Positions 10,198 through 36,884 of a stretch of 64,000 bases of DNA are shown piece after piece. Source of the DNA: a virus. The stretch lies in the IMG/VR virus record IMGVR_UViG_3300025929_000013, positions 32,001 through 96,000 of that record. One strand, 5' to 3'. The notes beneath the pieces are model-generated. The model worked only from the letters and a program-made list of their open reading frames with translations, did no database searches and was not told the origin of the DNA. The position numbers and the translations under genes are program-made. Every line of letters starts with the position of its first letter. Position 1 is the first letter of the stretch.

Positions 10198-10395
10198 CTA
10201 CAGCTGCACGGGGATCCATTCGCCGGTGCGCGCCGCGTCAAGAGCCGCTTCCCACTCGCGGCGGGTGAACTTGAGCACGGGGCCGTGGGGGTCCTTGGTG
10301 TCGCAGACCTCGAAACCGTCGGGCGTCTCGCGCACCGCTACGCAGTCGCCACCGTTGTCACCGCTCTTGGCGGGTTTCATCCATTGGCCTTGCAT
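10198..10395 (-). CDS. DUF397 protein
   Basis: W.K...S..NGGDCV.V....EVCDTKDP.GPVLKFTRREW signature. Confidence 0.9.
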   Translation of the reverse strand: MQGQWMKPAKSGDNGGDCVAVRETPDGFEVCDTKDPHGPVLKFTRREWEAALDAARTGEWIPVQL

Positions 10396-11243
10396 CAGTT
10401 GGCCGTCTCCTTGATCCGTCGTTCGATGAACTTGAGTGATTCCGCTTCGGACAGCGCCTCCTGAGTGACCCTGCCGATCACGCGCCTGGCCTGGGTGACC
10501 TCCAAATCTCCGTCATGCTTGATGTACCCGAATGTCGTCTCGGTGTACACGACCGCGGGGCCGCCGCTGTGGAATTCGAGGAGCTGCACCTGCCAGAACA
10601 CCACCGGTGTGTCGAGCGTGACCACCCGGATGCTGACGTTGGGCAGCTCGACCACCTCCCGCAGGTACTTGAGCTGCGTGTGGAACACCGGCTGGCCGCC
10701 GTACGGCTTGCGCAGTGCGGCCTCTCCGATGACGGCTCGCAGCTCCAATGGCTCCGGCTCGGTGAGCCTGCGCTGCCGCAGCATGCGCACGGTGATCAGT
10801 GCCTGGACGCGGTCCGGATCGGTGACCATGGCGCTGCCCGCGTAGAGGCCGCGCGCATAGTCCGTTGTCTGGAGCTGGCCCGGGATGAGAACCGGCTGGA
10901 TCGTACTCAGGCGCTGTGCTTCGTTCTCGTAGCCGATGTACTCCTGGTGCCGGGCCCCGATCTCCCCGCCGAAGCGTTCCCACCAGGCGTCCGTACGCGT
11001 GGCGATCGCCATCTCGCACAGGCGCTCGGTCTCCACTTGCGCAACCCCGTAGAGCGCACACAGCTTTACCACGTCCCGAGGCTCGACCTGAACCTCGCCG
11101 CGCTCGATGCGTTGCAGCTTCACCCTTCCGAACCCGACAATATTGGCCGCCGCCTCGATCGACAGGTTGTCCGGGTGCTGCTTGCGCAGCTCGACAAGCC
11201 GCCTGGCGACCTGCTCTTGCGTCCACGAAGCGCTAAAGGCCAT
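10395..11243 (-). CDS. XRE-family HTH regulator with DUF5753 domain (WhiJ-like)
   Basis: N-terminal HTH (KLQRIERGE), WW motif, IPGQLQT.DYAR; paired with DUF397. Confidence 0.9.
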   Translation of the reverse strand: MAFSASWTQEQVARRLVELRKQHPDNLSIEAAANIVGFGRVKLQRIERGEVQVEPRDVVKLCALYGVAQVETERLCEMAIATRTDAWWERFGGEIGARHQEYIGYENEAQRLSTIQPVLIPGQLQTTDYARGLYAGSAMVTDPDRVQALITVRMLRQRRLTEPEPLELRAVIGEAALRKPYGGQPVFHTQLKYLREVVELPNVSIRVVTLDTPVVFWQVQLLEFHSGGPAVVYTETTFGYIKHDGDLEVTQARRVIGRVTQEALSEAESLKFIERRIKETAN

Positions 11244-11469
11244 GTGGCCTCCCTTCCCGAGAACATCATGCCCGGTGGAAGCGCGCTGTGTTGGTAACGA
11301 ATGTATTACGACGCGAACTAGTTCTTGCACATGTTCTGCGACAGGGCCACTCTCGTCTTAGCAGCTGACGGTGAGTCACGAAGTGACAGCTCGTAGCGTA
11401 CAACGTGGACCGCCAGTGCACCCGCAAATGCAGCATCTCGTGCACACCGGCATCCCCTGGGACGAGATC

Positions 11470-11931
11470 ATGAGCGCTGTAACCGTCGTGGAAGCTTTCG
11501 ACACCCGTGTCAGCCGGGCTGACGCCTCCGCAGACATTTCACTCCCCGTACGCCAGAGATCCACCGGCGAGCTGGCCCGGCGTCACACCGAGGCGTGGCT
11601 CGCGGAGTGGGACCTGAGCGAGTGCGCCGACGTCGTCAAGACGATCATCGGCGAACTGATCCAGAACGTGGTCAAACACACCGACAGCGCGCTGGTCACC
11701 GTCGTCCTGGCCTGGCATACAAACGACCACCGCCTATTGATCACAGTCGGCGACACCGGTAGGGCGATGCCCGGGACGCATGGTCCGTGGGTGCGCCGCT
11801 GCGGTGCGACCGCCGAGTTCGGGCGAGGGCTTGCGCTTGTCGCTGACTTAACCGAGCAAGCCTGGTTCAAGGCCAAACCGGACGCCGGGCTCAACCGCTA
11901 TGCCCTGCTCAACCTGGACGGGCCGTCATGA
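11470..11931 (+). CDS. HATPase_c ATP-binding protein (anti-sigma-like, AbaA-OrfA-like)
   Basis: ELIQNVVKH, V.DTG and GRGL.LV motifs; divergent from XRE; in-frame TTA codon at 11848. Confidence 0.85.
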   Translation: MSAVTVVEAFDTRVSRADASADISLPVRQRSTGELARRHTEAWLAEWDLSECADVVKTIIGELIQNVVKHTDSALVTVVLAWHTNDHRLLITVGDTGRAMPGTHGPWVRRCGATAEFGRGLALVADLTEQAWFKAKPDAGLNRYALLNLDGPS

Positions 11932-26130: not shown

Positions 26131-28065
26131 TTATTTCGCTTCGGCCCAGCTGTCGCAGACGACGAGGTCGCTGGTCAGGGGCAAGTTGATCAGTTTCTGG
26201 ATGTCGGGGCCGAGCATCGCCTCGCGCACGATCGCGGCGCATTCCTCGGCCAGCGGGGCGGGGGTCTCGGTGACCAGCTCGTCGTGCACGGTCAGCACCA
26301 GGCGCATCCCGGAGTGCAGCTGCCGGTGCAGGCGCACCATGGCGAGCTTGATCAGGTCCCCAGCGGAGCCCTGGATCAGGGAGTTGACGGCCTGGCGTTC
26401 GGCCAGGGCGCGCAGCTCGCTGTTGCGATAGCGGATCTCCGGCAGGCGCCGGTGGCGCCCGAGCAGGGTCACGATGTGCGGGTCCGGACGCGAGCGGCAG
26501 GTGCGGATCACGCTCTCGCGGAACCTGTAGATCTCCGGGAACTGGCGGCGGTGCACTTCGAGCACGCGCTTGGCCTCGGCGAGGGGGATCTTCGCCATCG
26601 CGGCCACGCGCGCGGGTCCGGCGCCGAACACGATCGCGAAGGCGATGGCCTTGGCGACCTGGCGCATGTCCTTGGTGACCTGCTCGGCGGTGACGCCGAA
26701 CACCTGCATCGCGGTCGCCGTGTGCGCGTCGATGCCCGCCCAGAAACCCTCGTACAGGGCCCCCATCCCGAGGTAGTGAGCGAGGATGCGCAGCTCGATC
26801 TGGCCGTAGTCGGCAACCACCAGGCGGTAGCCCTCGGTCGCGGTGAACAGGGAGCGCACCTGTCTGGCCAGCTTCTCCCCGGGACGCGGCACGTTCTGGA
26901 GGTTCGGGTCGCGCGAGGAGAATCTGCCGGTGCGCGTCCCATACTGCACGAAATCGGTGTGGATACGGTCATTGATGAGGACCCCGGGCTTGTCGTCGGT
27001 GCCGAGGTAGGAGCGCACGTAGGTGGTGTCGATCCGCTCCAGCTCCTGGTACGCCTCCAGGGCCTGCACGACCGGCTGGTCCGCGTAGGGCTCCAGGGCC
27101 TCGGAGCTGGTGGAGTAGTCGCTGATGGTCAGCTTCGCGCCGAGTTTCGCCTTGGCCTCGCCGCCCTTGGTGGGCAGCAGGGGTTTAAGGCCCAGGCCTC
27201 CTTCGGCGGGCTTGGCGTAGAGCAGCTGCTGTTTCTGCGGCACGCTGTTCAGGTTGAAGATTCTTCCGGCGGCGGCGTAGAGGTTCTCGCGGGCGTTGTC
27301 CAGTACCGGGGTGATCTCGTCGGCCAGTCTCTGAAGGGCCGCGGTGTCCACATGGGCGCCGTCGCGGCGCATGTGCGCGACGACTTCAAGGACCTGCATC
27401 TCCAGGTCCATCAGCTCGTCGAACCCCTGCGCGCTCAGTGCCTTGGCGACGCGGCGATAGAGCAGCCAGTCGTAGCGGGCGTCGAAGAACCCGTAGCGTC
27501 CGACGGCGGAGATGGAGTGGCGCTCGACCGCCTTGCCGGTCTCCTCGCGGTCGTAGGTCACCCCGTACGTATTGGTGATCAGGTCCTTGAGTCTCTTGGA
27601 GCGCAGGTTCTCGTCCAGGATCCAGACGCCCACGATGGTGTCGTGGTAGGGGGGCGCGGGGATCGCCGGGAGGTGCTTGGCGACGGAGACCAGGTCGATC
27701 GTGGCGTTGTGCGCGATCTTCGTGCGGCCGGACGCCATCAGGGGGGCCAGGGCCTCGAACACGCGCTCGCGTTCCAGCTGTTTGGGCGGGGCGTCCCAGA
27801 GCGGGGGGTGGGTGACGAATTTCCCGGTGGCGCGGTCCTTGCGGCGCACCGCGGGGGCCAGCAGGGTGTCGCCGTTGGGGTGGCCGAACGGGATCGAGCA
27901 GGCGAACCCGTAGGTGGCCAGGGAGATCCAGGTGACCTCGTTGTAGACCGGGTGCCCGCGCCTGGGGCCGGTGGACTCGATGTCGAACGCGAACGCGTCG
28001 GCGGCCTCAAGGCGCGCCACGGTGTCACGCAGTTGTTCTTCGGTGAGCACGAGCGCGGGGAACAC
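26131..28065 (-). CDS. Family A DNA polymerase with 3'-5' exonuclease domain
   Basis: FDIES, TGRFSS..PNLQN, ADYGQIELRILAH, R..AK...F, N..IQGSA.D and VHDEL. Confidence 0.96.
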   Translation of the reverse strand: MFPALVLTEEQLRDTVARLEAADAFAFDIESTGPRRGHPVYNEVTWISLATYGFACSIPFGHPNGDTLLAPAVRRKDRATGKFVTHPPLWDAPPKQLERERVFEALAPLMASGRTKIAHNATIDLVSVAKHLPAIPAPPYHDTIVGVWILDENLRSKRLKDLITNTYGVTYDREETGKAVERHSISAVGRYGFFDARYDWLLYRRVAKALSAQGFDELMDLEMQVLEVVAHMRRDGAHVDTAALQRLADEITPVLDNARENLYAAAGRIFNLNSVPQKQQLLYAKPAEGGLGLKPLLPTKGGEAKAKLGAKLTISDYSTSSEALEPYADQPVVQALEAYQELERIDTTYVRSYLGTDDKPGVLINDRIHTDFVQYGTRTGRFSSRDPNLQNVPRPGEKLARQVRSLFTATEGYRLVVADYGQIELRILAHYLGMGALYEGFWAGIDAHTATAMQVFGVTAEQVTKDMRQVAKAIAFAIVFGAGPARVAAMAKIPLAEAKRVLEVHRRQFPEIYRFRESVIRTCRSRPDPHIVTLLGRHRRLPEIRYRNSELRALAERQAVNSLIQGSAGDLIKLAMVRLHRQLHSGMRLVLTVHDELVTETPAPLAEECAAIVREAMLGPDIQKLINLPLTSDLVVCDSWAEAK

Positions 28066-28150: not shown

Positions 28151-28834
28151 CTATTTGGTGAGCTCGGCGACCAGCTCGCGCAGCTCCTCGACGGTGGGGA
28201 TGTCCTCGACCGAGGAGCCGATCTCGTAGGCCTGCGCGCGGAACTCGGCGAGCTGCTCGTCGCTCAGGGCGGTGATGTCCCAGTCGTCCTTCAGGTCGCG
28301 CATCTTGATGACCTCGGCCTGGTATTCGGTGTTGGTGCCCTTGCCGGTGGCGTGGATCGCGACGTACAGCCGGGGGTCGTCCAGGCCCTCGAACCGGCGG
28401 TCACCGGCGATGCCCTCCAGCTTGCGCGCCAGGCGTGCTCCGGCCTGGATGTATTCGAAGCTGGGGTTCTCCGGGTCCGCGAAGCTCACGACGTTGAAGC
28501 ACACCGCCATGGCGGCGGGCTGGTCTCCGAACGGATCGCAGAGCGGACAGTCGCCGGACAGGTGCCGGTAGCTCTTGCGCCCGGTCTTCTCGATCCAGTG
28601 GCTTCGATAGCTGTCGAACGGTTCGGCATCCAAGAACTTGACGACAATCGGCTCTTCGCCGTCGGTGAATTTCAGGGGCCGCGCGAACCCGCCGCCCTCG
28701 GCCAGGGTGCTCTTCATCCCGCCCCATCCGCCGGATCCGCCGCCGCTGGGGCGCTTGGCGGGTGCGGTGTTACGGCGGCCCGGGGTCTCCTGCGGTTCAG
28801 CCTCGGGCAGTGCGCGGCGGCGCTTGGTTTCCAT
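28151..28834 (-). CDS. Single-stranded DNA-binding protein (gp32-like)
   Basis: Position next to the polymerase; H....CPLC, GKG.NT.Y; acidic C-terminal half. Confidence 0.65.
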   Translation of the reverse strand: METKRRRALPEAEPQETPGRRNTAPAKRPSGGGSGGWGGMKSTLAEGGGFARPLKFTDGEEPIVVKFLDAEPFDSYRSHWIEKTGRKSYRHLSGDCPLCDPFGDQPAAMAVCFNVVSFADPENPSFEYIQAGARLARKLEGIAGDRRFEGLDDPRLYVAIHATGKGTNTEYQAEVIKMRDLKDDWDITALSDEQLAEFRAQAYEIGSSVEDIPTVEELRELVAELTK

Positions 28835-29069
28835 GTGATCTCCTGCTCAGCGCGGGATGGGCGTGAAGCACCGAGTTGTCCTCGGTGGTAAGGCCCTGAT
28901 AGCGCTCGCGTTCCGGCCGAAGCAGGCGATCGATGGCGTTGCGGAAGTACTCGACGGGGTCCACGTCCCCGTCTTCGAAGTCAGCTGTCACCGTGGCCGA
29001 ATATTCGGCCCATTCATAGGAGCCCAGGTTCACGTGCTCGGTGACCGTGCGCGTGATCTGGATCTTCAC
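28797..29069 (-). CDS. Hypothetical protein
   Basis: VNLGSYE motif; operon position. Confidence 0.6.
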   Translation of the reverse strand: MKIQITRTVTEHVNLGSYEWAEYSATVTADFEDGDVDPVEYFRNAIDRLLRPERERYQGLTTEDNSVLHAHPALSRRSHGNQAPPRTARG

Positions 29070-29551
29070 TGGTCCGCCTTGGCGGCCTGGGCCTCGGCGT
29101 TGGCGGTGCGCACGAACAGCTCGTAGATGCGCGCGCGGAAGTTGGTCTTGTGGATGTTGCGGCCGTGGGGGCTCAGGACCCCCTCCTCCCGCGCTATCTC
29201 GATCATCGCCTCGATCAGCGCGCGGGAATAAAGGCGCTGCCTTCCGCGCACGTCGGTGGACGGCGAGCGCCAGAAGGTGACCGGCAGGATGCCGTCCTGC
29301 TCCCAGCGCCGCACGGTGGTGACCTTGCGGTTAAGGGCCTTGGCCAAGGCGCCGATCGGAAAGAACTCGACCGTCTTGCCGCGCACCATGTACTTGCGCG
29401 GGTAGGAGTCCCAGCGCTCGCGGGAGGCGACGGGGGCGGCCAGCTCGGTCGGGCGCGAGGCCACGATCTGGCGGTTGGTGCCGGGGTACAGCCCGGTTTC
29501 CGGGTCGGGCGTGCGGATGAACGGGCCACCGGCGCAAGAGCTCTTGGTCAC
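29066..29551 (-). CDS. MerR-like HTH DNA-binding protein
   Basis: IGALAKALNRKVTTVRRWEQDGILP...RLYS. Confidence 0.8.
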   Translation of the reverse strand: MTKSSCAGGPFIRTPDPETGLYPGTNRQIVASRPTELAAPVASRERWDSYPRKYMVRGKTVEFFPIGALAKALNRKVTTVRRWEQDGILPVTFWRSPSTDVRGRQRLYSRALIEAMIEIAREEGVLSPHGRNIHKTNFRARIYELFVRTANAEAQAAKADQ

Positions 29552-30012
29552 AGCGCCTCCGCCTCCGGCTTGAACGCCCAGCTGACCCGGGTGTCGAACA
29601 GGTCGTCGATCTCGCGCTCGGTCAGCAGGCCCTGCTGGTAGAGGACGTAGAGCTCGTCCTGATCGAAGGTGGGCCTCGCCGGGAACAGCCGACCGACCAC
29701 GCCCTTGGCCATGGCCAGGGCCTCGGCGCGCTCCTCGTTGACCAGGCGTGAGACGCGCCGCTCGCGCTTGATGCCCTCGTAGCGGCGCCCGGCGTACTCG
29801 AAGGGGCGCCCGATCGCCAGGCGCAGGTGCCCGGACTCGTCGCTCTCGCCGTAGCGCTCGACGTCCGCGCTGATGTCGTCTCGCAATTGGTTGAGCTGGC
29901 TCGTGAGGCGGTCGACCTGGGCCTTGAGATAGACCCACATTTTCAGCTTCTCGGTAAGCTCCTTACCCGGCACCGTGCCGGGGTCGTCACACTGCATCAC
30001 AGATGTCTCCAC
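29548..30012 (-). CDS. Coiled-coil hypothetical phage protein
   Basis: 154 aa, high GC3. Confidence 0.65.
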   Translation of the reverse strand: METSVMQCDDPGTVPGKELTEKLKMWVYLKAQVDRLTSQLNQLRDDISADVERYGESDESGHLRLAIGRPFEYAGRRYEGIKRERRVSRLVNEERAEALAMAKGVVGRLFPARPTFDQDELYVLYQQGLLTEREIDDLFDTRVSWAFKPEAEAL

Positions 30013-30195
30013 GGTTGTATCCGCGCAGCCTGATAGAAGCGGTCTGAGAAGACCGTGCTGCTATCGGGGGAACTGCTAGCGACCGTAGGTCCACCCGGCC
30101 AAGAAGCCAAGGGTTGGCGCACTGCAAGTGACTATGGATTTGATGTGGTCAACTAATCGACCAATTGTTGGGGGGACGCACCCTCATCTGGACGT

Positions 30196-30816
30196 TTAAG
30201 CGGTGGCCTGGCGGTAAATGTTGCGCAGGCTTCCCTCGGAGCGCTCCAGGCCGCGCTCGGTGAGCCAGGGGGCGGCGATCTGGCGCGCGAAGGCGACGCC
30301 GGTTGCGTTCGGGTTGGCCGCGTACGCGACGGCGAGCTTCTCCAGCTCCTGGCGCACGGCGCTGCGCGGCTTCGTGGCACCCTTGGCGCGGGCGGGCTTG
30401 GTCTTCGTCGCGGGCTTCACCTCGGGCTCCTCGCGGTGCGCCGAGAAGTGCGACAGCAGGGTGTTGACGACGAAGGCGGCGCTGGGCAGCACGGCGACGA
30501 AGTATCCGACCAGGTCGTGCACGGGTGCGTCGAACAGGTTCGCCGCGAGGGAGATGCCGCAGAAGAGGGCGAACACGAACCACGCGAGCATGCGCACGCC
30601 GCCGGACAGGGTGCGGTCCAGGACCTTGCGCAGGGCGTACACGGTGACCGCGTCGACCGCGACGGGGTAGAGGTCGGCCTGCCACTGGCCCTGTCCGGCG
30701 CGCAGGGCCAGGTCCCTGATGTGGCTGAAGCTCAGGGCGCCGGTCACGACGGCCAGGAACACGGTCGCGCCGTGCTCGGCGATTTTCTGCGTGATCTCGC
30801 TCAGCCAGCGCATCAT
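30196..30816 (-). CDS. DUF2637 / SpdA-like membrane protein with basic C-terminal putative DNA-binding region
   Basis: LSFSHIRDLA..AG, YPVAVD, SLAAN and about four hydrophobic helices; Lys/Arg-rich linker then a helical domain. Confidence 0.8.
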   Translation of the reverse strand: MMRWLSEITQKIAEHGATVFLAVVTGALSFSHIRDLALRAGQGQWQADLYPVAVDAVTVYALRKVLDRTLSGGVRMLAWFVFALFCGISLAANLFDAPVHDLVGYFVAVLPSAAFVVNTLLSHFSAHREEPEVKPATKTKPARAKGATKPRSAVRQELEKLAVAYAANPNATGVAFARQIAAPWLTERGLERSEGSLRNIYRQATA

Positions 30817-30840
30817 TTCCCCACCCGATTCCCTGAATCA

Positions 30841-31930
30841 GTGCACCGTATTTCGACAGGGTAGGAGAGTGCTGCGCATTGTGCAAACTATTCTACCGCT
30901 TGTGAACTTGTGCACCCTGTGTGGGATCGTGGTGTGTGCACATCTGGGCGGTTCGTGCACGCACGTCATTCACCCGTTCGGCCCCACGCCGGTGTGCGTG
31001 ATGCGTGCAGGTGTGCGGTGAGTGATCCGCGTTTGTGCGTGCGCTTGTGTGCACGGTCGTCGACCGAGGCGAGCATGACCTGTTGTGCACCGAGCATCCG
31101 TGCATGCACGTGCTCCTCGATGCTGTGCACGGTGACCATGTCGTCCACGTGCACGGTGCGGTGCACCGAGGATGCACGGGTGTGCCGGGTGCAGCGCTGC
31201 ATCCATGCACCCACCCCGCCGGGCGCGTCGTAGTTGATCACGTGGGAGGCGACGGGCAGGTCGACGCCGCTGCCCCCGGCGTCCGTGCTCAGGAACACCC
31301 GGCACGTGAAGCTGGTGCAGAAGCGGGCCACGGCCGCGGCGCGGGCCGCCGCGTCAAGCTCTCCGTGGTACAGGACGCTCTGATAGGCCCCCAGGGCTTC
31401 TTGCAGCAGCGGGAGCATCTCACGGAACGCGGTGAACACCACGACCTTGTGGGAGGGCTCGACGAGGGCTGCGTCGACCAGCTGGAGCAGGACGTCGAGC
31501 TTCTCCCCGCCCGCCTGCTCGGGAATCGCGCCCGCGTCGACCAGCTTGCGGGCGTAGGCGCTGCCGATGCCCTTGCCCTTGCCCTTGCCCGCGCTGCGGT
31601 GTTTGGCCGCGGAGACGTGCAGCAACCGCGGGTCGCACAGCAGCAGCCGCGCGGCGAGCATGCACGCGCTGACCCGGCCGAGCGCCGCGCTGCCGTGCTG
31701 TGCACCGCCCGCGTACAGTGCGGCGACGTCCACGTGCGCACGACCCTCGTCGCGGGCACGCTCCAGTGCATGCTCCAGGTCGCGTTCGATACGTGCATAC
31801 ACCGCGCGGGTGTGCACACCCAGATGCACCGGGACCGTACGGTGCACGACGGCGGGCATGCACGCGGCCACGTCCGGATCGTGCACGGTGCGCCGGTGCA
31901 TCGCCGGGGCGAGCGTGTCGTGCATGACGT
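30841..31930. repeat. Two clusters of GTGCAC palindromes (13 exact copies plus TGCA variants)
   Basis: Exact copies start at 30841, 30910, 30936, 30955, 31049, 31085, 31125, 31149, 31161, 31700, 31812, 31842 and 31881. Confidence 0.85.
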
Positions 31931-32600
31931 CGAGGTTCCGGTAGGCCACGGGGCGCCCGTACTCGTTGCGCACGACGTAGGCGCGGTCGTATAGGTCCCA
32001 CCGGCCGAACACGGACGGGTCGACCCACTGCATGACGCTGTAGATCTCCTCGGGCCTGCCGTTGTCCATGGGCGTACCGGTCAGGGCGTACCGGTACGGA
32101 GCTGTCAAATCCTTGATCTTCTTGGTGCGCTGCGCCCCGGCGTTCTTGATCGCCTGCGCCTCGTCCAGGACGATCCCCTCGAAAGCCAGGCGTCGCAGGG
32201 CCCCCGCGTCGGCGCACGCGGTCTCGTAGGAGACGATCACGTAGTCCGGGCGCCCGTCGCGCTGCATCGCGGCGTATAGCTCGGCACGCTTGGCCGGGGC
32301 GGCGTCGATCACCGCGCAGTGTTCCGCGGCCGGGACGCGCAGCGTCACATTCTTGAGCCGGATCCCGCGCGTGCGAACGTCGGCGAAGGCCGCGATCTTC
32401 TCGGCCCACTGCCAGCGCAGCGCCGCCGGGACGATGATCAGGGCGCTGTCGACCTCGCCGCGCATGAAGAGTTCTTCGATCACGGCGAGGGCGACCAGGG
32501 TCTTGCCGGTGCCCATCCCGTGCGCGATCAGCATGCTGCGGCGCTCGACGGCGGCGCTCACGGCCTGTTCCTGGTAGCCGTGCAGATTTCCGCAGAACAT
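30966..32600 (-). CDS. SNF2-family helicase
   Basis: GMGTGKT, LDEAQ, LTGTP and STDAG..GVDL. Confidence 0.92.
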   Translation of the reverse strand: MFCGNLHGYQEQAVSAAVERRSMLIAHGMGTGKTLVALAVIEELFMRGEVDSALIIVPAALRWQWAEKIAAFADVRTRGIRLKNVTLRVPAAEHCAVIDAAPAKRAELYAAMQRDGRPDYVIVSYETACADAGALRRLAFEGIVLDEAQAIKNAGAQRTKKIKDLTAPYRYALTGTPMDNGRPEEIYSVMQWVDPSVFGRWDLYDRAYVVRNEYGRPVAYRNLDVMHDTLAPAMHRRTVHDPDVAACMPAVVHRTVPVHLGVHTRAVYARIERDLEHALERARDEGRAHVDVAALYAGGAQHGSAALGRVSACMLAARLLLCDPRLLHVSAAKHRSAGKGKGKGIGSAYARKLVDAGAIPEQAGGEKLDVLLQLVDAALVEPSHKVVVFTAFREMLPLLQEALGAYQSVLYHGELDAAARAAAVARFCTSFTCRVFLSTDAGGSGVDLPVASHVINYDAPGGVGAWMQRCTRHTRASSVHRTVHVDDMVTVHSIEEHVHARMLGAQQVMLASVDDRAHKRTHKRGSLTAHLHASRTPAWGRTGE

Positions 32601-33530
32601 TTACAGACGCTCCAAATACCGCGCGAGGCGCGAGTAGGCGCCGTCGTAGGCGTCGGCGATCTCTTTGTCGCTCATCTCGCCGGGGTCTTTGACGGTGCGC
32701 CGCGGGTAGCGGAAAAAAGTGACGCGGGTGCGGCGGCGCAGCCGGGCCTCGACCAGGTCCGCGTTCGAGATCCCCGGCTCGTCGTTGTCCAGGGCGATCA
32801 CGACCCGGTCGGCCAGGCGCACCAGCAGGTCGATCTGGGCGTCCGAGACAACCGCGCCGAAGGAGGCGAGCGCGCCGGGGATTCCGGCGGCCCACAGCCG
32901 GGCGCAGTCCAGGGGGGACTCGACCAGGACCGCGGTGTCGCCGTCGAAGGCGTGCGCCCCGAACAGGGTGGAGGCCTTGGCGATGCCGCGGGGGCGGTTG
33001 CGCACGAACTTGCCGCGCTTGTACTGGTAGCCGAGCAGCGCGCCGCGCGGGTCGCGGATCGGCAGGACGAAGCCGCCGGACTCCTCGTCCCACAGCAGGC
33101 CGTAGCGGGCGGCGCCCTCGTCGTCGATGCCGCGTTTGGCAAGCGCCTCGGCCGGGGGGAAGGCGTAGCCTGCCAGGCTCGGCTCCGGCGGGGGCGCCGA
33201 TGGTACGCAGGGTCCGCGCAGGATCCGTGCGGCGCGCTCCAACGACCCGTAGCGCGCGGTCCAGGTGTGCGCGGCGACCGGGTCCAGGCCCAGGCGGTCC
33301 ATGACCAGGGTGGGAAACGAACCCTGATAGCCGCAGCTGAAGCAGAGGAACAGACCGCGCTCCTCGTTGACACTGAACGAAGGGTGCCGGTCCTCTTTCC
33401 CGGTGCGCGCGAGATGGGCGGGGCAGTGCGCCCACACCTCCCCGCCCTCGACGCGCACGATCTCGATCCCCAGCTCCCGCAGCGCGCCCTGTACGTCGCC
33501 GGGCACCGGCGGGGCGGTCAGATCCCACAT
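32601..33530 (-). CDS. DNA primase (CHC2 zinc finger plus Toprim)
   Basis: CPAH...CFSC, VES..D, LDNDEPG and KDPGE. Confidence 0.92.
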   Translation of the reverse strand: MWDLTAPPVPGDVQGALRELGIEIVRVEGGEVWAHCPAHLARTGKEDRHPSFSVNEERGLFLCFSCGYQGSFPTLVMDRLGLDPVAAHTWTARYGSLERAARILRGPCVPSAPPPEPSLAGYAFPPAEALAKRGIDDEGAARYGLLWDEESGGFVLPIRDPRGALLGYQYKRGKFVRNRPRGIAKASTLFGAHAFDGDTAVLVESPLDCARLWAAGIPGALASFGAVVSDAQIDLLVRLADRVVIALDNDEPGISNADLVEARLRRRTRVTFFRYPRRTVKDPGEMSDKEIADAYDGAYSRLARYLERL

Positions 33531-33539
33531 ACCGGCGCC

Positions 33540-34817
33540 CTACCAGCGTGAGGTCGCGCTCGTGCCGCCGGTGGTGGCCTCGAATGGGCTCTGCGCCAGC
33601 TCCTCGCACGCCCCGCGACTCCAGTCGATGCGGATGTGGCTCTGCACGTTGGGGCAGTTGCGCGAGGCGACGATCTTGAGCAGCTTGACCGCGTCGTCGT
33701 CGGTGGGATCGAGCGCCATGGCGATGTCGGCGTCCATTTCGAAGCTCGACGCCCAACCGAACGAGCCGCCGTCGGCGCCCTTCTTGCGGTCGACCTTGGA
33801 GCGCAGCAGCTGGCTGGTGATGATCACCGGGATCGCCCAGGTGTCGGCGAGACGCTTGAAGGACTGCGTGAGAGAGGTGATGGCCTGGGGTGTGCCCACG
33901 TCCCCGGTCAACTCGTCGCGCATCAGGTAGATGCCATCGACCGCGAGCAAATCGGGGCGGTTGCGCTCGATCGACGCGGCGATCTGTGTAATCGTGGCCT
34001 GATGTGCGATCCCCTTGTGGATGTGGAAGGACGCCATGCCTCCCACGCGGGCGATCGCGCGTTCCAAGCGAATCCATTCGGCCTGGTTAAGCGTGCCGCT
34101 GCGCAGCTTCTGGACGTCGATCCCGGCGAACGAGGCGTCGAGGCGCTCGGCGATCTCCATGACGCCCATCTCGATCGTGTAGAGCAGCGGAACCAGCTCG
34201 CTGCCGTTGGCGTAGGCGTCCTCGTAGGCGTAGCGGGTGATGGCGCTCAGGACAGTGGTCTTGCCCCCCTTGGGCAGGCCGCCGAGCACGACGAGCTGTC
34301 CCGGTTGCAGGCCTTGGGTGGCTCGGTCGACGGTGGGGAACCCGGTGGGGATCCCGCGCAGGCCCTCGATGCTCTCGCGGTAGGCGCGATACTGCCCCAG
34401 GCGCTCGTCGCCGCTCTTGAGCAGTTCCAGCATCGCCGCGCGACGGCTCGGGCGCATCAAGGAGCGCAGGGTGGTGGCGAGTACGCCCTCGCTGGCGTCC
34501 AGGTCCCCGGCCTCCAGCGCCTCGACCGCGCGCACCACGCCCACAGCGAGCACCTCGCGGTTGCGCTGCTCGACCAGGCGGTCGAGGTAGACGGCGATCG
34601 GCTCGGGCGGGGTGTCGAAGGTGTAGCCGGGGAACTGGGCCGCGAGGGTCTCGGCGCTCGGGACGCGGCCGTAGCGCGTCTGGTGGCCGAGGATCGCCTT
34701 GTACACCTTGGCGTGCACGGGGGTGGGGAAGTATTCGGCGGTGATCTGGGCGTCGGTCAGGGCGTGGGTCGAGCCCTCGGCCACGACCGCGCACAGGACC
34801 CTGTGTTCGATGTCCAT
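33540..34817 (-). CDS. dnaB: DnaB-like replicative helicase
   Basis: GIPTGF, G.PKGGKT, IEMG, SQL.R and E.DAD. Confidence 0.93.
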   Translation of the reverse strand: MDIEHRVLCAVVAEGSTHALTDAQITAEYFPTPVHAKVYKAILGHQTRYGRVPSAETLAAQFPGYTFDTPPEPIAVYLDRLVEQRNREVLAVGVVRAVEALEAGDLDASEGVLATTLRSLMRPSRRAAMLELLKSGDERLGQYRAYRESIEGLRGIPTGFPTVDRATQGLQPGQLVVLGGLPKGGKTTVLSAITRYAYEDAYANGSELVPLLYTIEMGVMEIAERLDASFAGIDVQKLRSGTLNQAEWIRLERAIARVGGMASFHIHKGIAHQATITQIAASIERNRPDLLAVDGIYLMRDELTGDVGTPQAITSLTQSFKRLADTWAIPVIITSQLLRSKVDRKKGADGGSFGWASSFEMDADIAMALDPTDDDAVKLLKIVASRNCPNVQSHIRIDWSRGACEELAQSPFEATTGGTSATSRW

Positions 34818-35273
34818 CTAGAGCCGTCCGATCTGGTCCGCGCGGTCGGGGGGAAGATGCTGGCCGCGCTGCCCGAATGTCAATAGGTTGGCCCGGTCGG
34901 GGAAGTAGACCCGCTGCACGTCCGGGCGCCGCGCCAGCTCGCGGGCGACACCGGCGGGGGTGCGGCTCAGGACCGGGGCGTAGATGTTCTGCTCGTAGCC
35001 GAGCGTCTCGGCCAGCTCCAGGGCGAAGCCGTCCCCGAGGAAGGTGAGCACTTCCAGGTGCCAGTGGTCGCGCACCATCGTGCGGTAGATCGCGGCGGCG
35101 GCCAGCTCGTTGACCGAGAAGTCCGCGGGGGACAGCGCCCTGGGGGGCGTACGGCGGCGCCAGGGGCCCTTGCGCGGTGCGCTTGGGGTCTCGGGCCGCC
35201 GCAGCCCCACCAGGCCCTCGTAGACCACCCAGAGCCGCTGCGGGGGGTCGTCTGAGATGTCGCCGTGCTGCAT
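34818..35273 (-). CDS. Hypothetical phage protein
   Basis: MQHGDIS...VVYEGL; contiguous operon. Confidence 0.65.
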   Translation of the reverse strand: MQHGDISDDPPQRLWVVYEGLVGLRRPETPSAPRKGPWRRRTPPRALSPADFSVNELAAAAIYRTMVRDHWHLEVLTFLGDGFALELAETLGYEQNIYAPVLSRTPAGVARELARRPDVQRVYFPDRANLLTFGQRGQHLPPDRADQIGRL

Positions 35274-35962
35274 CAGGACCGGTGCCGCGGGATGGTGACC
35301 GGCAGCTGTGTGAAGCCGCGCAGGAACTCGACCAGGTGCTCGGGGTAGGCAGCGATCATCTGGGGCAGCCCCACGCCGGTGACGGCGATGGTGACCAGGC
35401 CGCGGCGGCGGCGGGAGGCAAGGACGCGGTACAGCTCGTCGTAGGACGCACCGGAGGCGGTGATGCGCTCGCGCCCGATGTCGTCGATCACGATCAGCGA
35501 GTCGTGCATGACGCGATCCATGGAGGCGTCCAGGCTCTCCAGGTCGTCCTCGTGCTCGATGCCCCGGCCCTCGCGCCAGGCGTGACGCTCGTTGAAGAAA
35601 TGGATGTAGTCCGGCCAGGGCACGTAGAGCACGGTGATCCCGTCGTACCGGCGCCCCAGCACGATCTCGGTCAGCACCGTGCAGGCGATCTCAGTCTTGC
35701 CGATCTTCGGAGGCCCGCTCACGAACAGGCCGACCCCGATCAGGCTGCGATCGTCGGGGAACTCGGATAGGGGCGTGCGCTCGGGCACGTAGCGCACTGC
35801 GAACGTCTCGATGAAGTCCCGGGCGATCTGGAGCGTGGCCTCAGGATGGGCGAGGTCCTCCAGGACGCGGCCCCAGGTGCCCACGGGGAATCGGGCGGCG
35901 TTCCACACGGAGGCGGGCGGCATTGTCTCGGTCACGGGGTTCCAATCAGGATACGAATTCAT
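35273..35962 (-). CDS. DnaC-like helicase loader (AAA+)
   Basis: GPPKIGKT Walker A and IVIDDIG Walker B; lies between initiator and DnaB. Confidence 0.85.
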   Translation of the reverse strand: MNSYPDWNPVTETMPPASVWNAARFPVGTWGRVLEDLAHPEATLQIARDFIETFAVRYVPERTPLSEFPDDRSLIGVGLFVSGPPKIGKTEIACTVLTEIVLGRRYDGITVLYVPWPDYIHFFNERHAWREGRGIEHEDDLESLDASMDRVMHDSLIVIDDIGRERITASGASYDELYRVLASRRRRGLVTIAVTGVGLPQMIAAYPEHLVEFLRGFTQLPVTIPRHRS

Positions 35963-36884
35963 AGGTGGTCGGGGTCGAGGTCCGCTCCGGCCAGCGCACG
36001 TAGGCGTCGGGGTCGTCGCGGTACAGGGCGCGCTGCTCGGCCTCGCGGATCTTGGACAGCAGCAGGTGGCGCTGGAAGAGGAAGTGCCTCCAGGGGGCCA
36101 CGCTCGGATTGCGCAGGCCTCCGGCCTCGGCGTACAGGTTCGTCATCGCGCGGATCTGCGCGGGGGTGACGCCCTCGTCGAGCAGCACCCGGAACAAGCG
36201 TGCCAATGCCTTGACATTGGTGTCGAGGGCTCCGGCGATCCGGGCCTCCTGCATCCGCGCGCGCCACGCCAGGGCCAGGCCCATCGGGCTGTCGGCCGAG
36301 GGCGAGCGCCGCGGGCCGTGGGAGCCCCAGCTCTCCCGCGAGGCCCCGGCGCTCGCGCTCGCCGGGTGCGTCTGCCACAGATCCAGAGCCTTCGCCGGAT
36401 CCAGGGCGTCCTCCCGGTCCCTGGCCGCCTTCGCCTCCCGGCGTACCGCCGCGCGCCGCGGCGGTGAAGGAAGACACGAAGTGTCTTTCTTCTCTGGCTC
36501 TGGTTCTATTGGCTCTCGTTCATTGAGGGCCCCCATCCGTGATGGGTCGGTGTCCCGCACCGGTGATGGGTCGCTTGCAGGGTTCTGCGATGGTGCGGGC
36601 TTCCCGATGCCGAGGAGATATTCGACGCCGTGGATGACGCCGCGGCGCTTGACGGTGATCCACCCGGTCTCGCGAAGCTCGCGCACCGCCCGCTCGATCG
36701 TGGGTACCGAGCACTTGAGATCGGCGGCGAGCGTGGCCTGGCGCGGCCAGCACCGCCGCGCGTCGCCCGCGTAGCGCAGCAGCATCCCGTAGACCGTGAT
36801 CGCCCGCGGAGACAGACCGCTTCGCAGCAGCTCTTCGGGCAACGGTGCCCAGTACCCCTCGTTCATCAGTACCCCGTCATCCAT
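35946..36884 (-). CDS. Replication initiator with N-terminal winged HTH
   Basis: CWPRQATLAADLKCS..TIERA..EL...GWI; upstream of the loader. Confidence 0.8.
   Translation of the reverse strand: MDDGVLMNEGYWAPLPEELLRSGLSPRAITVYGMLLRYAGDARRCWPRQATLAADLKCSVPTIERAVRELRETGWITVKRRGVIHGVEYLLGIGKPAPSQNPASDPSPVRDTDPSRMGALNEREPIEPEPEKKDTSCLPSPPRRAAVRREAKAARDREDALDPAKALDLWQTHPASASAGASRESWGSHGPRRSPSADSPMGLALAWRARMQEARIAGALDTNVKALARLFRVLLDEGVTPAQIRAMTNLYAEAGGLRNPSVAPWRHFLFQRHLLLSKIREAEQRALYRDDPDAYVRWPERTSTPTTYEFVS
36481..36597. repeat. Candidate iterons and origin within the initiator gene
   Basis: GTGATGGGTCG at 36539 and 36563, degenerate copy at 36587 (24-nt period), next to a T-rich tract at 36481-36525. 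Confidence 0.5.

What the first reader, a model, noticed from the sequence alone, without database searches (positions are those of the whole stretch)
30196..31930. GTGCAC palindrome field written into a helicase gene next to an SpdA/DUF2637-like membrane protein: candidate membrane-tethered centromere
Seen: 13 exact GTGCAC copies lie in about 1.1 kb (9 in 30841-31166, 4 in 31700-31886), with one more at 30517 and many TGCA variants. Base composition near 70% GC predicts well under one copy in that span. The motif runs through the intergenic region into the SNF2 coding sequence in different frames and visibly skews the protein (SSVHRTVHVDDMVTVHSIEEHVHARM; VVHRTVPVHLGVHTR), so selection appears to act on the DNA. 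The gene just downstream encodes a roughly four-helix membrane protein with a basic C-terminal domain. Known: on Streptomyces plasmid pIJ101 an SpdA-type membrane protein binds short palindromes near its own gene and contributes to stability. Inference: this is a two-part cis/trans module that anchors the phage genome to the membrane for segregation or spread through hyphae, which would be unusual for a tailed phage.
Basis: partly seen in the sequence, partly recalled or inferred. Interest (0 to 1): 0.85.

Follow-up and report, generated by a model that had tools for sequence, protein, structure and literature searches.

The report
Docking-site array beside membrane-anchor gene
A soil Streptomyces-type phage has written about two dozen copies of the short palindrome GTGCAC (more loosely RTGCAY) into the end of a helicase gene and into the promoter of the next gene. 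That gene encodes a membrane protein with a small DNA-binding-like tail, so the copies are most likely docking sites that hold or regulate the phage DNA at the cell membrane.

Summary
Thirteen exact GTGCAC lie in 30841-31886 (11.7 per kb, against 0.45 per kb on the rest of the 108.8-kb contig). The true consensus is RTGCAY, with 24 copies in two sub-fields.

Selection acts on the DNA. With the SNF2 protein held fixed, synonymous resampling gives 3.1 GTGCAC (observed 9) and 6.7 RTGCAY (observed 20). Out-of-frame copies are built from rare codon pairs, four copies lie in non-coding DNA, and asymmetric variants occur in both orientations.

The Val-His imprint is kept in seven orthologues (63-100% identity) and is absent from 42 more distant ones.

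SpdA2 is soluble, is not DUF2637 and binds a different 12-mer. The contig has no ParA/ParB but two recombinases, so a plasmid-type centromere is unlikely.

The cis/trans idea survives. The array overlaps the promoter of the DUF2637 gene, whose product has four membrane helices, a basic linker and a three-helix HTH-like tail. In my own sample, DUF2637 loci were enriched for private word arrays (13/31 against 0/20 controls).

This scan has already noted DUF2637-plus-array systems on other DNA. This case is a variant: a palindromic word, placed upstream and inside a neighbouring conserved gene. The binding protein is inferred, not shown.

The parts
30841..31210 (.). Sub-field A of the RTGCAY array. 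It holds 9 exact GTGCAC, ATGCAC/GTGCAT variants, and looser variants (TTGTGCAA, TTGTGAAC, GTGCAG). It spans the intergenic promoter region and the last 80 or so codons of SNF2 (helicase motif VI and the C-terminal tail).
   Evidence: GC3 of the SNF2 frame falls from about 0.9 to 0.6-0.7 here.
31617..31925 (.). Sub-field B of the array. It holds 4 exact GTGCAC plus 7 ATGCAC/GTGCAT, inside the variable region between the two SNF2 helicase lobes (codons about 226-328).
   Evidence: GC3 dips to 0.66 at 31711-31845. Rare codons (CAT, GCA, CGT, GGT) cluster here.
30966..32600 (-). SNF2-family helicase gene (544 aa). It hosts 9 GTGCAC and 20 RTGCAY.
   Evidence: Pfam SNF2-rel_dom E 2.6e-30 and Helicase_C E 2.1e-18; phrog_62 DNA helicase; orthologue alignment.
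30817..30965 (.). Intergenic region of 149 bp with GC about 0.51. It holds 4 exact GTGCAC.
30878..30906 (-). Promoter-like element for the DUF2637 gene: TTCACA, 17 nt, CACAAT. A TAGAAT lies at 30890-30895. A GTGCAC at 30910-30915 abuts the -35, the variant TTGCACAA overlaps the -10, and a GTGCAC at 30841-30846 lies in the 5' leader.
   Evidence: consensus scan: 1 found against 0.1 expected; sequence read on the minus strand. Promoter function is inferred.
30196..30816 (-). DUF2637 membrane protein gene (206 aa): four membrane helices, a basic linker (residues 127-150) and a three-helix C-terminal domain (151-205). This is the top candidate reader of the array. A single GTGCAC lies at 30517.
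   Evidence: Pfam PF10935 E 3.2e-14; AlphaFold2 pLDDT 88.5; domain-only model pLDDT 88.6; HTH-like structural neighbours.
29066..29389 (-). Small MerR/excisionase-like HTH (HTH_17) ORF two genes downstream. It is an alternative candidate reader. The start codon is uncertain (29389, 29464 or 29551).
   Evidence: Weak Pfam hits below the curated cut-off: HTH_17 E 2.8e-4, MerR_1 E 7e-4. GC3 0.93-0.95.
29548..30012 (-). ORF of 154 aa with no family match, between the DUF2637 gene and the HTH_17 ORF.
   Evidence: GC3 0.92; no Pfam or PHROG match.
35946..36884 (-). O-like/HTH_36 replication initiator gene of the same module. It contains its own origin-like element at about 36465-36580: two 20-bp repeats with internal dyads, an A+T-richer patch and a 12-bp hairpin. 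It is relevant as the competing candidate for the primary origin.
   Evidence: Pfam HTH_36 E 1.5e-15; phrog_270/391 replication initiation; repeats and sequence.

Best explanation
The field is a cis-acting array of about 24 binding sites (RTGCAY, best form GTGCAC) for a symmetric, sequence-specific double-stranded-DNA-binding protein. Selection on the DNA maintains it even where it overlaps the SNF2 helicase reading frame.

The most likely reader is the protein encoded immediately downstream, whose promoter sits inside the array: the DUF2637 protein. That protein has four membrane helices, a basic linker and a small three-helix HTH-like tail.

Binding of many copies would do two things. It would autoregulate the DUF2637 promoter. 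It would also gather this part of the phage chromosome, in the middle of the replication module, at the cytoplasmic membrane. The result is a one-protein DNA-to-membrane tether that organises lytic replication, rather than a plasmid-style segregation device.

Shown: the array, its uniqueness on the contig, DNA-level selection, its conservation in a phage clade, the domain architecture, and the family-wide link between DUF2637 genes and private word arrays.

For: 1. Array statistics. 13 GTGCAC and 24 RTGCAY lie in about 1.1 kb, against 0.45 and 0.76 per kb elsewhere. It is the only such cluster on the contig.

2. DNA-level selection.
- With the SNF2 amino-acid sequence fixed, synonymous resampling gives 3.1 +/- 1.4 GTGCAC (observed 9, p 1.5e-4) and 6.7 +/- 1.7 RTGCAY (observed 20; 0 of 20,000 trials reached it).
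- All 8 Val-His pairs use GTG. Out-of-frame copies use rare codon pairs: CGT-GCA, GGT-GCA, CAT-GCA.
- Copies occur in two reading frames and in non-coding DNA.

3. Recognition on double-stranded DNA. The asymmetric variants ATGCAC and GTGCAT occur 6 and 5 times, that is, in both orientations. Single-strand folding is unremarkable, z = -1.6.

4. Conservation. Val-His counts are 3-8 in the seven orthologues at 63-100% identity, at aligned positions, and 0-2 in 42 more distant ones.

5. Architecture. The sites abut the -35, overlap the -10 and lie in the leader of the DUF2637 gene. This is the layout of the adaptor/site pair AlpA/alpS.

6. The protein. The confident model shows four membrane helices, a basic linker and a three-helix domain. 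Its neighbours are mostly DNA-binding HTH modules: Tn4430 TnpA DNA-binding region Z 6.0, R388 StbA DNA-binding domain Z 4.9, RecX, ColE2 Rep, IS630 HTH_23, TetR_N. About 10 of 44 family members have Pfam HTH hits in the tail.

7. Family-wide link, tested here.
- 13 of 31 DUF2637 loci in actinomycete genomes reach -log10 p >= 9 for a local 6-mer cluster, against 0 of 20 control regions from the same genomes (Fisher p 4e-4).
- In L195, L214 and L221 the words lie in the linker of the DUF2637 gene itself, in three frames and both orientations.

8. Co-variation, weak and confounded by phylogeny. The third tail helix keeps S-x-G-T/S-L-R-N in partners of the Val-His-rich SNF2 genes. It differs in partners of P0008 and P0017, which lack the imprint.
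Against: - No binding was tested, and the fold matches are modest (Z 6 or less), which is common for three-helix bundles.
- In five of the sampled DUF2637 loci, the nearby array lies inside an upstream HTH_36 rep-like gene. It is more simply read as rep iterons, so part of the family-wide association may reflect neighbourhood to replication origins rather than DUF2637 binding.
- DUF2637 travels with this SNF2 lineage on contigs whose SNF2 lacks the Val-His imprint (P0008, P0017). Presence of the gene therefore does not predict this word.
- Other DNA-binding proteins are encoded nearby: the HTH_17 ORF, the HTH_36 initiator and a WhiJ-like Xre regulator.
- No orthologous DNA could be obtained, so conservation of the motif itself is inferred from protein sequences only.
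Confidence: 0.42

Rival explanations
1. Operator or roadblock array for a soluble regulator. A phage or host transcription factor binds RTGCAY sites to repress the DUF2637 promoter and perhaps to stop read-through from the replication operon. Candidates are the downstream HTH_17/MerR-like protein, the WhiJ-like Xre regulator at 10395-11330, or the prophage repressor. Membrane tethering plays no part.
For: The sites overlap the promoter-like element. An HTH_17 ORF lies two genes downstream. A pair of exact GTGCAC 24 bp apart lies in the divergent promoter region of a WhiJ-like Xre/DUF397/ATPase cluster. The phage is probably temperate, so silencing of the replication module in lysogens would make sense.
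Against: Twenty-four sites spread over 1.1 kb, 20 of them inside a conserved gene, is far more than promoter control needs. The 11416/11440 pair is within chance expectation for about 49 background sites (my estimate, about 0.7 such pairs). There are no other clusters at other promoters on the contig.
Confidence: 0.22
2. Replication origin or auxiliary origin. The array is a set of iterons inside and beside a replication gene, as with lambda ori inside gene O. It is bound by the phage initiator or helicase loader, and the lower-GC intergenic stretch is the unwinding region.
For: The field lies in the middle of the replication module: initiator, DnaC-like loader, DnaB, primase, SNF2, field, then PolA further on. 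Intergenic GC is 0.51 against 0.68. In five actinomycete mobile elements, inverted-repeat arrays lie inside an HTH_36 rep-like gene directly upstream of a DUF2637 gene.
Against: The initiator gene has its own lambda-like origin candidate in the linker after its HTH domain, at 36465-36580, and it contains no GTGCAC. Cumulative GC skew shows no inflection near 31 kb. A 6-bp palindrome with irregular spacing is unlike typical 17-22-bp iterons. BRock-type relatives with the same gene order have no such array.
Confidence: 0.15
3. One reading: a plasmid-type centromere. An SpdA-like membrane protein binds the array to segregate or spread an extrachromosomal phage genome through hyphae.
For: The array-plus-adjacent-adaptor layout resembles centromeres. 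[quoted passage not shown] The tail resembles the DNA-binding domain of partition protein StbA at Z 4.9.
Against: No ParB_N or ParA-type ATPase is on a contig that CheckV rates complete. Two recombinases point to integration. The protein is unrelated to pIJ101 SpdA or SpdB. The sps 12-mer is absent.
Confidence: 0.08
4. Methylation or restriction-linked site cluster. GTGCAC is, from my own knowledge, the ApaLI-type restriction site. The cluster would act like the GATC clusters of oriC or P1 pac, read through its methylation state.
For: A 6-bp palindrome is the typical form of type II sites. Clusters of methylatable palindromes are known at origins and pac sites (my knowledge, not tested).
Against: No C5, N6_N4, D12-class or N6_Mtase methyltransferase was found on the contig. 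The consensus relaxes to RTGCAY, which is not one enzyme's site. The terminase and portal genes are more than 20 kb away according to an earlier unchecked note.
Confidence: 0.05
5. By-product of protein-level selection for His/Val-rich segments in the helicase, or chance.
For: His content is 5.0% against 2.2% elsewhere, and the Val-His pairs are conserved in orthologues.
Against: Four copies and several variants lie in non-coding DNA. Copies occur in two frames. Codon choice alone is significant (p 1.5e-4 and below 5e-5). Poisson p is about 1e-14.
Confidence: 0.03

Closest known systems
AlpA / alpS of the Corynebacterium glutamicum prophage CGP3 (PMC4446434)
   Same: It is an actinobacterial prophage. 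24 copies of a short word (TTAAnnG) are concentrated in the promoter region of the adaptor's own operon. The adaptor binds them, the phage DNA ends up at the membrane, and both proteins are needed for efficient phage replication.
   Different: AlpA is soluble and works through the actin-like filament AlpC. Here no filament protein was identified, and the candidate adaptor is itself membrane-anchored. The word here is a palindrome, and most copies lie inside a neighbouring coding sequence.
SpdA2 / sps of Streptomyces plasmid pIJ101 (PMC4170104)
   Same: A short palindrome is written into a coding region without destroying the protein. It is bound by a small plasmid-encoded DNA-binding protein and contributes to stability.
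   Different: SpdA2 is soluble, 117-163 aa, and is not DUF2637. sps is the 12-mer CGTCACGTGACG, with 2-3 copies inside spdA itself. Here about 24 copies of a 6-mer lie in another gene and in the promoter. There is no sequence similarity.
SpdB2 of Streptomyces plasmid pSVH1 and its putative actinophage homologues (PMC4447253)
   Same: [quoted passage not shown] Homologues on actinophages were proposed to help spread phage DNA.
   Different: SpdB2 binds DNA non-specifically and forms pores, and no cognate site array is described. pIJ101 SpdB shows no relation to the DUF2637 profile (hhalign probability 0.2%). pSVH1 SpdB2 itself was not tested.
phi29 p16.7 (PMC4974454, citing Serna-Rico et al. 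2003)
   Same: It is an early phage membrane protein that provides an anchoring point to the membrane for the replicating phage genome.
   Different: p16.7 acts through the terminal protein and single-stranded DNA, without a sequence-specific site array. It is an unrelated protein in a protein-primed phage.
Centromere-like arrays that overlap the adaptor's own promoter: ParR/parC of plasmid R1 and StbA/stbS of plasmid R388 (my knowledge; the StbA DNA-binding domain is PDB 7pc1)
   Same: Ten or so short repeats flank or overlap the promoter of the operon that encodes the binding protein, giving both autoregulation and DNA positioning. The tail here aligns to the StbA DNA-binding domain (Z 4.9, 62 residues).
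   Different: Those repeats are direct repeats of 9-11 bp in non-coding DNA and serve plasmid segregation. The structural match is weak. No NTPase partner was found here, and the phage probably integrates.
clt / TraB recognition repeats of Streptomyces conjugative plasmids (my knowledge; also named by earlier scan notes)
   Same: They are arrays of a short (8-bp) word in or next to a coding region of a mobile element, read by a membrane-associated DNA-handling protein.
   Different: TraB is an FtsK-like pump that reads non-palindromic 8-mers. No such pump lies next to this field. Not tested here.

Membership tests
DUF2637 (Pfam PF10935) | Match to the family profile above the curated cut-off | tested here: met
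   E 3.2e-14, 53.6 bits against a cut-off of 22.8, residues 18-129. It is the only copy on the contig.
DUF2637 (Pfam PF10935) | N-terminal multi-helix membrane domain | tested here: met
   The AlphaFold2 model has helices 2-39, 44-65, 72-95 and 102-126, pLDDT 84-97. That they are membrane-spanning is inferred from hydrophobic sequence; it was not computed with a topology predictor.
SpdA / SpdA2 (sps-binding proteins of Streptomyces plasmids) | Sequence similarity to the conserved SpdA N-terminal DNA-binding region | tested here: not met
   A six-frame tblastn of the protein against 72,556 plasmids, pIJ101 included, gave only two DUF2637 matches and none on pIJ101. The annotated pIJ101 SpdA has no Pfam family in common.
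SpdA / SpdA2 (sps-binding proteins of Streptomyces plasmids) | Associated 12-bp palindrome CGTCACGTGACG in 2-3 copies in or beside the gene | tested here: not met
   There are only two 2-mismatch matches in 64 kb, fewer than chance, and none is in an array.
SpdA / SpdA2 (sps-binding proteins of Streptomyces plasmids) | Small soluble protein of 117-163 aa | tested here: not met
   The protein is 206 aa with four hydrophobic helices. The paper describes no membrane segment.
SpdB / SpdB2 spread proteins | Homology to plasmid SpdB proteins | tested here: inconclusive
   pIJ101 SpdB against the DUF2637 alignment gives hhalign probability 0.2%, and it has no Pfam hit. pSVH1 SpdB2, the characterised protein, could not be fetched and was not tested.
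ParABS / ParMRC-type partition system | ParB-type or ParR-type adaptor together with a ParA or ParM NTPase on the same replicon | tested here: not met
   ParB_N gave no match and AAA_31 gave no match, with the controls responding. The StbA_N (ParM) search is uninformative because its control was silent.
Iteron-type replication origin inside a replication gene (lambda ori / O type) | Repeats bound by the initiator, located in or next to the initiator gene, with an adjacent A+T-rich region | tested here: inconclusive
   The field is 5 kb from the HTH_36 initiator gene. That gene has its own repeat, A+T patch and hairpin element at 36465-36580. Binding cannot be tested here.
SNF2 helicase family (host gene of the array) | SNF2-related N-lobe and Helicase_C lobe | tested here: met
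   PF00176 E 2.6e-30 and PF00271 E 2.1e-18. Conserved residues are kept through the motif-laden stretch in the alignment.
HTH-type DNA-binding domain (tail of the DUF2637 protein) | Tri-helical fold matching solved DNA-binding domains | tested here: inconclusive
   There is no Pfam hit on residues 125-206. The three-helix model has pLDDT about 96. Best matches are the Tn4430 TnpA DNA-binding region (Z 6.0), the StbA DNA-binding domain (Z 4.9), RecX and ColE2 Rep, all with Z below 8. Atlas neighbours are RecX_HTH2, HTH_23 and TetR_N at TM 0.5-0.65.
Type II restriction-modification target (GTGCAC) | A cognate methyltransferase encoded by the element | tested here: not met
   PF00145, PF01555, PF02086 and PF02384 were all negative on the contig, with the controls responding. 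A host enzyme cannot be excluded.

The most novel reading that the evidence does not exclude
DUF2637 proteins are a widespread, undescribed class of one-protein DNA-to-membrane tethers of actinobacterial phages, plasmids and integrative elements. Each has a membrane anchor and a small HTH tail that reads a private short word, and that word is written in tens of copies into or beside its own gene. This phage shows that the array can be exported into a neighbouring, strongly conserved helicase gene (including helicase motif VI), can use a 6-bp palindrome, and can sit at the heart of the replication module to localise phage replication at the hyphal membrane.
Probability: 0.38. Interest if true: 0.85.

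Novelty: new variant of a known kind. Interest (0 to 1): 0.62.

Why it matters
If the tether model holds, a family of unknown function would gain a function. DUF2637 is mentioned in only two papers of the searched library. The model would also explain how large Streptomyces phages position their replicating DNA in multinucleate hyphae.

It would give a clean natural example of a dense protein-binding code layered on a conserved enzyme-coding sequence. Here the array visibly reshapes the helicase: His content rises from 2.2% to 5.0%, Val-His pairs are 8.6 times more frequent than in other genes, and rare codon pairs are used.

The system is directly testable, because one small soluble domain and one 400-bp fragment suffice. 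The word/tail pairs of different elements would form a natural specificity series.

It also has a practical side for annotation: local codon-usage anomalies and odd dipeptide biases in phage genes can flag hidden cis elements.

Tried and rejected
This was the most wanted evidence.

Searches for orthologous DNA that led nowhere
- The search for related loci on metagenome contigs and genome contigs was saturated by generic SNF2 peptide patterns and returned only relatives at 30% identity or less.
- Viral contigs held no close SNF2 relatives and no DUF2637 relative.
- blastn against INPHARED phages found nothing.
- Read laying on four runs gave only 151-nt pieces identical to this phage, so there was no diverged DNA and no read-end information, because contigs only were laid.
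- No RNA holder was listed.

Jobs without a usable result
- Complex prediction with two copies of the DUF2637 protein gave no verdict. It is not evidence either way.
- Foldseek of the whole model against the PDB found nothing at E 0.001 or better. VIA on the whole model was dominated by generic helical bundles.
- Pfam on the tail alone gave no family.
- The StbA_N (ParM) search had a silent control and is uninformative.

Ideas tested and set aside
- General purine-pyrimidine (Z-DNA-type) alternation: alternating hexamers without the core are only 1.3 fold enriched.
- DnaA-box or Rex-operator reading of the TTGTGCAC/TTGTGAAC variants: the flanks of the 13 exact sites are not conserved. This comparison rests on consensus sequences recalled from memory.
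- Single-strand hairpin element: z = -1.6.
- Targeting by the phage's CRISPR-like spacers: only chance 13-mers.
- Literature search for a GTGCAC-reading Streptomyces factor: hits look incidental from titles and abstracts; the papers were not opened.
- BRock-type phages (39% SNF2 identity, same gene order) have no GTGCAC cluster.

Corrections to my own first curation of the 31-locus sample
- I first dismissed the in-gene arrays as low-complexity linkers. I reversed this for L195, L214 and L221 after seeing three frames and both orientations.
- L212 is a CRISPR array and L222 is probably a simple Pro/Ala-type coding repeat. Both remain in the 13/31 count, so a curated count would be about 11/31.

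Unpublished genome
- Locus L215 (unpublished genome G016) was left out of all analyses.
Full report
OBSERVATION

The window is bases 32001-96000 of a 108,847-base IMG/VR virus record that CheckV rates complete. GTGCAC occurs 42 times in the window. Thirteen copies lie in 30841-31886: nine in 30841-31166 and four in 31700-31886. One more lies at 30517.

On the whole contig there are 62 copies. The density is 11.7 per kb in the field and 0.45 per kb elsewhere, with Poisson p about 1.5e-14. No other palindromic hexamer clusters in this way.

ATGCAC and GTGCAT are 30-40 fold enriched, so the consensus is RTGCAY, with 24 copies in two sub-fields (30841-31210 and about 31617-31925) some 450 bp apart. 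The enrichment is specific to the TGCA core. Alternating purine-pyrimidine hexamers without it are only 1.3 fold enriched.

Pieces of 151 nt identical to the field occur in contigs of four other soil or rhizosphere runs from different studies. The sequence is therefore real, and the phage is widespread at low abundance.

GENE CONTEXT

All genes from about 43 kb down to 20 kb are on the minus strand. In transcription order they are:

| Gene | Window coordinates | Evidence |
|---|---|---|
| O-like initiator with an HTH_36 domain | 35946-36884 | |
| DnaC-like loader | 35273-35962 | |
| DnaB-like helicase | 33540-34817 | |
| Primase | 32601-33530 | |
| SNF2 helicase | 30966-32600 | |
| Intergenic region, 149 bp, GC about 0.51 | 30817-30965 | |
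| DUF2637 protein | 30196-30816 | |
| ORF of 154 aa, no family | 29548-30012 | |
| Small MerR/excisionase-like HTH ORF | about 29066-29389 | |
| ORF of 227 aa | 28151-28834 | |
| DNA polymerase I | 26131-28065 | |

The nearest isolated phages are the 112-116-kb Streptomyces phages BRock, GiJojo, LuckySocke and pSt2308, at about 39% SNF2 identity. BRock shares the order DnaB, primase, SNF2, small ORFs, PolA but has no GTGCAC cluster.

The contig has no ParB_N, no ParA-type ATPase and none of four methyltransferase families. It does have a tyrosine recombinase and a large serine recombinase. The phage is therefore probably temperate and integrating.

SELECTION ACTS ON THE DNA

Six of the nine in-gene copies are read as Val-His and three lie in frame +1.

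- Val-His density in SNF2 is 14.7 per 1000 residues, against 1.7 in 107 other genes of the phage.
- His content is 5.0%, against 2.2%.
- All eight Val-His pairs use GTG.
- The out-of-frame copies are built from pairs of rare codons (CGT-GCA, GGT-GCA, CAT-GCA) that cluster in the two sub-fields.
- GC3 in the SNF2 frame dips from about 0.95 to 0.66-0.76 exactly there.

I then held the protein sequence fixed and drew synonymous codons from the phage's own usage:

| Word | Expected (mean +/- sd) | Observed | P |
|---|---|---|---|
| GTGCAC | 3.1 +/- 1.4 | 9 | 1.5e-4 |
| RTGCAY | 6.7 +/- 1.7 | 20 | never reached in 20,000 trials |
| TGCA | 15.7 +/- 1.9 | 29 | never reached in 20,000 trials |

Four exact copies and several variants lie in non-coding DNA. 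The asymmetric variants occur in both orientations (6 and 5). Together these argue for recognition of double-stranded DNA by a symmetric reader, and against an RNA or single-strand element. Single-strand folding is unremarkable (z = -1.6).

CONSERVATION

A graded series of SNF2 orthologues exists. The Val-His pairs sit at aligned positions in the seven closest (63-100% identity; 3-8 pairs each). All 42 more distant orthologues have only 0-2 pairs, and those positions read differently. The conserved SNF2 residues are kept through the motif-laden stretch, so the helicase is probably still functional.

Conservation of the word itself is therefore inferred from the protein imprint.

THE DOWNSTREAM PROTEIN

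It matches DUF2637 (E 3.2e-14). With a 44-sequence alignment, AlphaFold2 gives a confident model (pLDDT 88.5): four long hydrophobic helices, a low-confidence basic linker (residues 127-150) and a compact three-helix domain (151-205; pLDDT about 95).

Modelled alone, the tail has pLDDT 88.6. Its best structural neighbours are mostly DNA-binding helical modules: the DNA-binding region of Tn4430 TnpA (Z 6.0), the DNA-binding domain of partition protein StbA of R388 (Z 4.9), SETMAR, RecX and ColE2 Rep. The Atlas lists RecX_HTH2, IS630 HTH_23, TetR_N and homeodomain-like clusters at TM 0.5-0.65. These scores are modest for a three-helix bundle, so a DNA-binding fold is plausible but not shown.

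About 10 of 44 family members have Pfam HTH hits in their tails, and the PHROG family is labelled excisionase.

ARCHITECTURE OF THE INTERGENIC PART

Read on the coding strand, the features come in this order:

1. The SNF2 stop codon.
2. GTGCAC copies at 30955, 30936 and 30910.
3. A promoter-like element: TTCACA, 17 nt, CACAAT. A TAGAAT lies inside it.
4. The variant TTGCACAA, which overlaps the -10.
5. A GTGCAC at 30841 in the leader, about 25 nt before the start codon.

An array that embraces the promoter of the gene for its own binding protein is the classical layout of adaptor/site pairs. In prophage CGP3, 24 alpS repeats lie in the alpAC promoter region.

SpdA2 of pIJ101 is a soluble DNA-binding protein of 117-163 aa. 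Its site, sps, is the 12-mer CGTCACGTGACG, present 2-3 times inside spdA. The paper never mentions a transmembrane segment.

- That 12-mer is absent here.
- The phage protein finds nothing on pIJ101 by six-frame search.
- pIJ101 SpdA and SpdB have no DUF2637 match, and hhalign gives 0.2%.

The Spd protein with four membrane helices is SpdB2, which binds double-stranded DNA non-specifically. The authors remark that putative homologues on actinophages might help spread phage DNA. The SpdA label therefore fails as a family assignment. The functional analogy, a palindrome in a coding region bound by a nearby-encoded protein, remains apt.

PF10935 matched in 24 of 121 sampled Actinomycetes genomes. 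I scored 31 loci of about 3.4 kb for their strongest local 6-mer cluster. One locus from an unpublished genome was excluded.

- Thirteen of the 31 reach -log10 p >= 9, against none of 20 size-matched control regions 50-100 kb away in the same genomes (Fisher p 4e-4).
- Eleven exceed all 40 Markov simulations, against none of the controls (p 0.002).

Curation:

- L212 is a CRISPR array, and L222 is probably a simple coding repeat.
- Five loci (L201, L203, L206, L213, L218) share 3-4 copies of the inverted repeat GGTAGCCGCA-N4-TGCGGCTACC, 200-800 bp upstream of the DUF2637 gene. In L201, L206 and L218 these lie inside an ORF with a weak HTH_36 hit, so they are most simply rep iterons. L201 also has a NikA/MobC-like gene and L203 a TrwC relaxase.
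- L195, L214 and L221 carry 10-17 copies of a private word in the linker of the DUF2637 gene itself, in all three frames and both orientations. These are DNA-level arrays.
- L204 and L216 have arrays in or upstream of the promoter.

None uses RTGCAY. DUF2637 genes are thus truly associated with private word arrays, but part of the association reflects their position next to replication genes.

EARLIER NOTES OF THIS SCAN

A word search returned 22 notes. At least seven of them describe other genomes in which a DUF2637 gene of a Streptomyces-type phage or phage-plasmid carries an array of its own short word. Several follow-ups claim that the word changes with the tail. I treat these as leads. 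My own sample reproduces the basic pattern but not the co-variation claim.

Within this clade I see only a weak, phylogenetically confounded hint. The third tail helix keeps S-x-G-T/S-L-R-N in the partners of Val-His-rich SNF2 genes. It differs in the partners of P0008 and P0017, whose SNF2 lacks the imprint.

RIVALS

- An origin reading is weakened. The initiator gene has its own lambda-like candidate at 36465-36580: two 20-bp repeats with internal dyads, an A+T-richer patch and a 12-bp hairpin, in the linker after the HTH. There is also no GC-skew inflection near 31 kb.
- A pure operator reading explains the intergenic sites, but not 20 further sites spread through a conserved gene.
- A plasmid-type centromere lacks partner genes and conflicts with the recombinases.
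- A methylation switch lacks a methylase.
- Protein-level selection is excluded by the codon test.
- The CRISPR-like spacers of the phage do not match the field.
- A homodimer prediction gave no verdict.

VERDICT

The field is a real cis element, under DNA-level selection and conserved in a clade. It is most likely a docking array for a symmetric DNA-binding protein, and the adjacent membrane-anchored DUF2637 protein is the best candidate reader. The likely roles are autoregulation and bringing the replication region of the phage genome to the membrane.

The closest functional analogue is CGP3 AlpA/alpS, and more loosely phi29 p16.7. It is not SpdA.

Compared with the DUF2637 arrays seen elsewhere, this one differs in three ways: it uses a 6-bp palindrome, it lies upstream of the gene rather than inside it, and it is written into a neighbouring conserved helicase gene. 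Binding and localisation remain to be shown.

Noticed in passing
window 36465-36580 (minus strand, inside the initiator gene 35946-36884): A lambda-like origin candidate lies in the linker after the HTH_36 domain. It has two 20-bp direct repeats 24 bp apart, each with an internal dyad, then an A+T-richer patch and a 12-bp-arm hairpin (arms 36466-36477 and 36481-36492).
   Followed up: partly
window 10198-11931: A WhiJ-like cluster on a phage: an Xre-type HTH protein of 311 aa (10395-11330, minus), a DUF397-like small protein (10198-10395, minus) and a divergent ATPase/anti-sigma-like ORF of 186 aa. These assignments come from reading the translations; no Pfam scan was run. Two exact GTGCAC 24 bp apart (11416, 11440) lie in the divergent region. 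That is within chance expectation but is a possible second target of the same reader.
   Followed up: partly
L201:2546-2675, L203:753-890, L206:2497-2620, L213:699-829, L218:2273-2402: Five different actinomycete genomes share an array of 3-4 copies of the inverted repeat GGTAGCCGCA-N4-TGCGGCTACC, 200-800 bp upstream of a DUF2637 gene. In L201, L206 and L218 the array lies inside an ORF with a weak HTH_36 hit, which makes it a likely rep gene with internal iterons. A NikA/MobC-like gene (L201) and a TrwC relaxase (L203) follow.
   Followed up: partly
L195:1691-2057, L214:1340-1505, L221:1009-1460: Private word arrays lie inside the linker of chromosomal DUF2637 genes, in three reading frames and both orientations: CCGAAC about 15 copies, CGAGAC/GTCTCG 10 copies, and GGGACC about 17 copies. 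They are DNA-level arrays, not peptide repeats.
   Followed up: partly
L216:2886-3025 and L204:1337-1405: L216 has three copies of the 12-bp palindrome ACGGATATCCGT plus half-sites about 850 bp upstream of a DUF2637 gene. L204 has four direct TGACGG-containing repeats in the promoter just upstream of the DUF2637 start.
   Followed up: no
L212:139-537: A type I-E-like CRISPR array (65-bp period) happens to lie next to a DUF2637 gene. It is a false positive of the cluster statistic.
   Followed up: yes
contig bases 19645-20148 and 32716-33150 (the latter is window 716-1150): The phage encodes both a tyrosine recombinase domain (in an open frame of 545 aa) and a large serine recombinase (open frame of 647 aa).
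   Followed up: no
window 30100-32700: Contig pieces of 151 nt identical to this phage occur in four rhizosphere or soil metagenome runs from four different studies (2017-2025). This is besides the microbial-fuel-cell sample that may be the source. The same phage is geographically or ecologically widespread at low abundance.
   Followed up: partly
The gene pair is therefore older than the GTGCAC imprint.
   Followed up: partly
window 30013-30195: A second lower-GC intergenic region (about 0.53 GC, 183 bp) lies between the DUF2637 gene and the next ORF. It has no RTGCAY sites. Its function was not examined.
   Followed up: no
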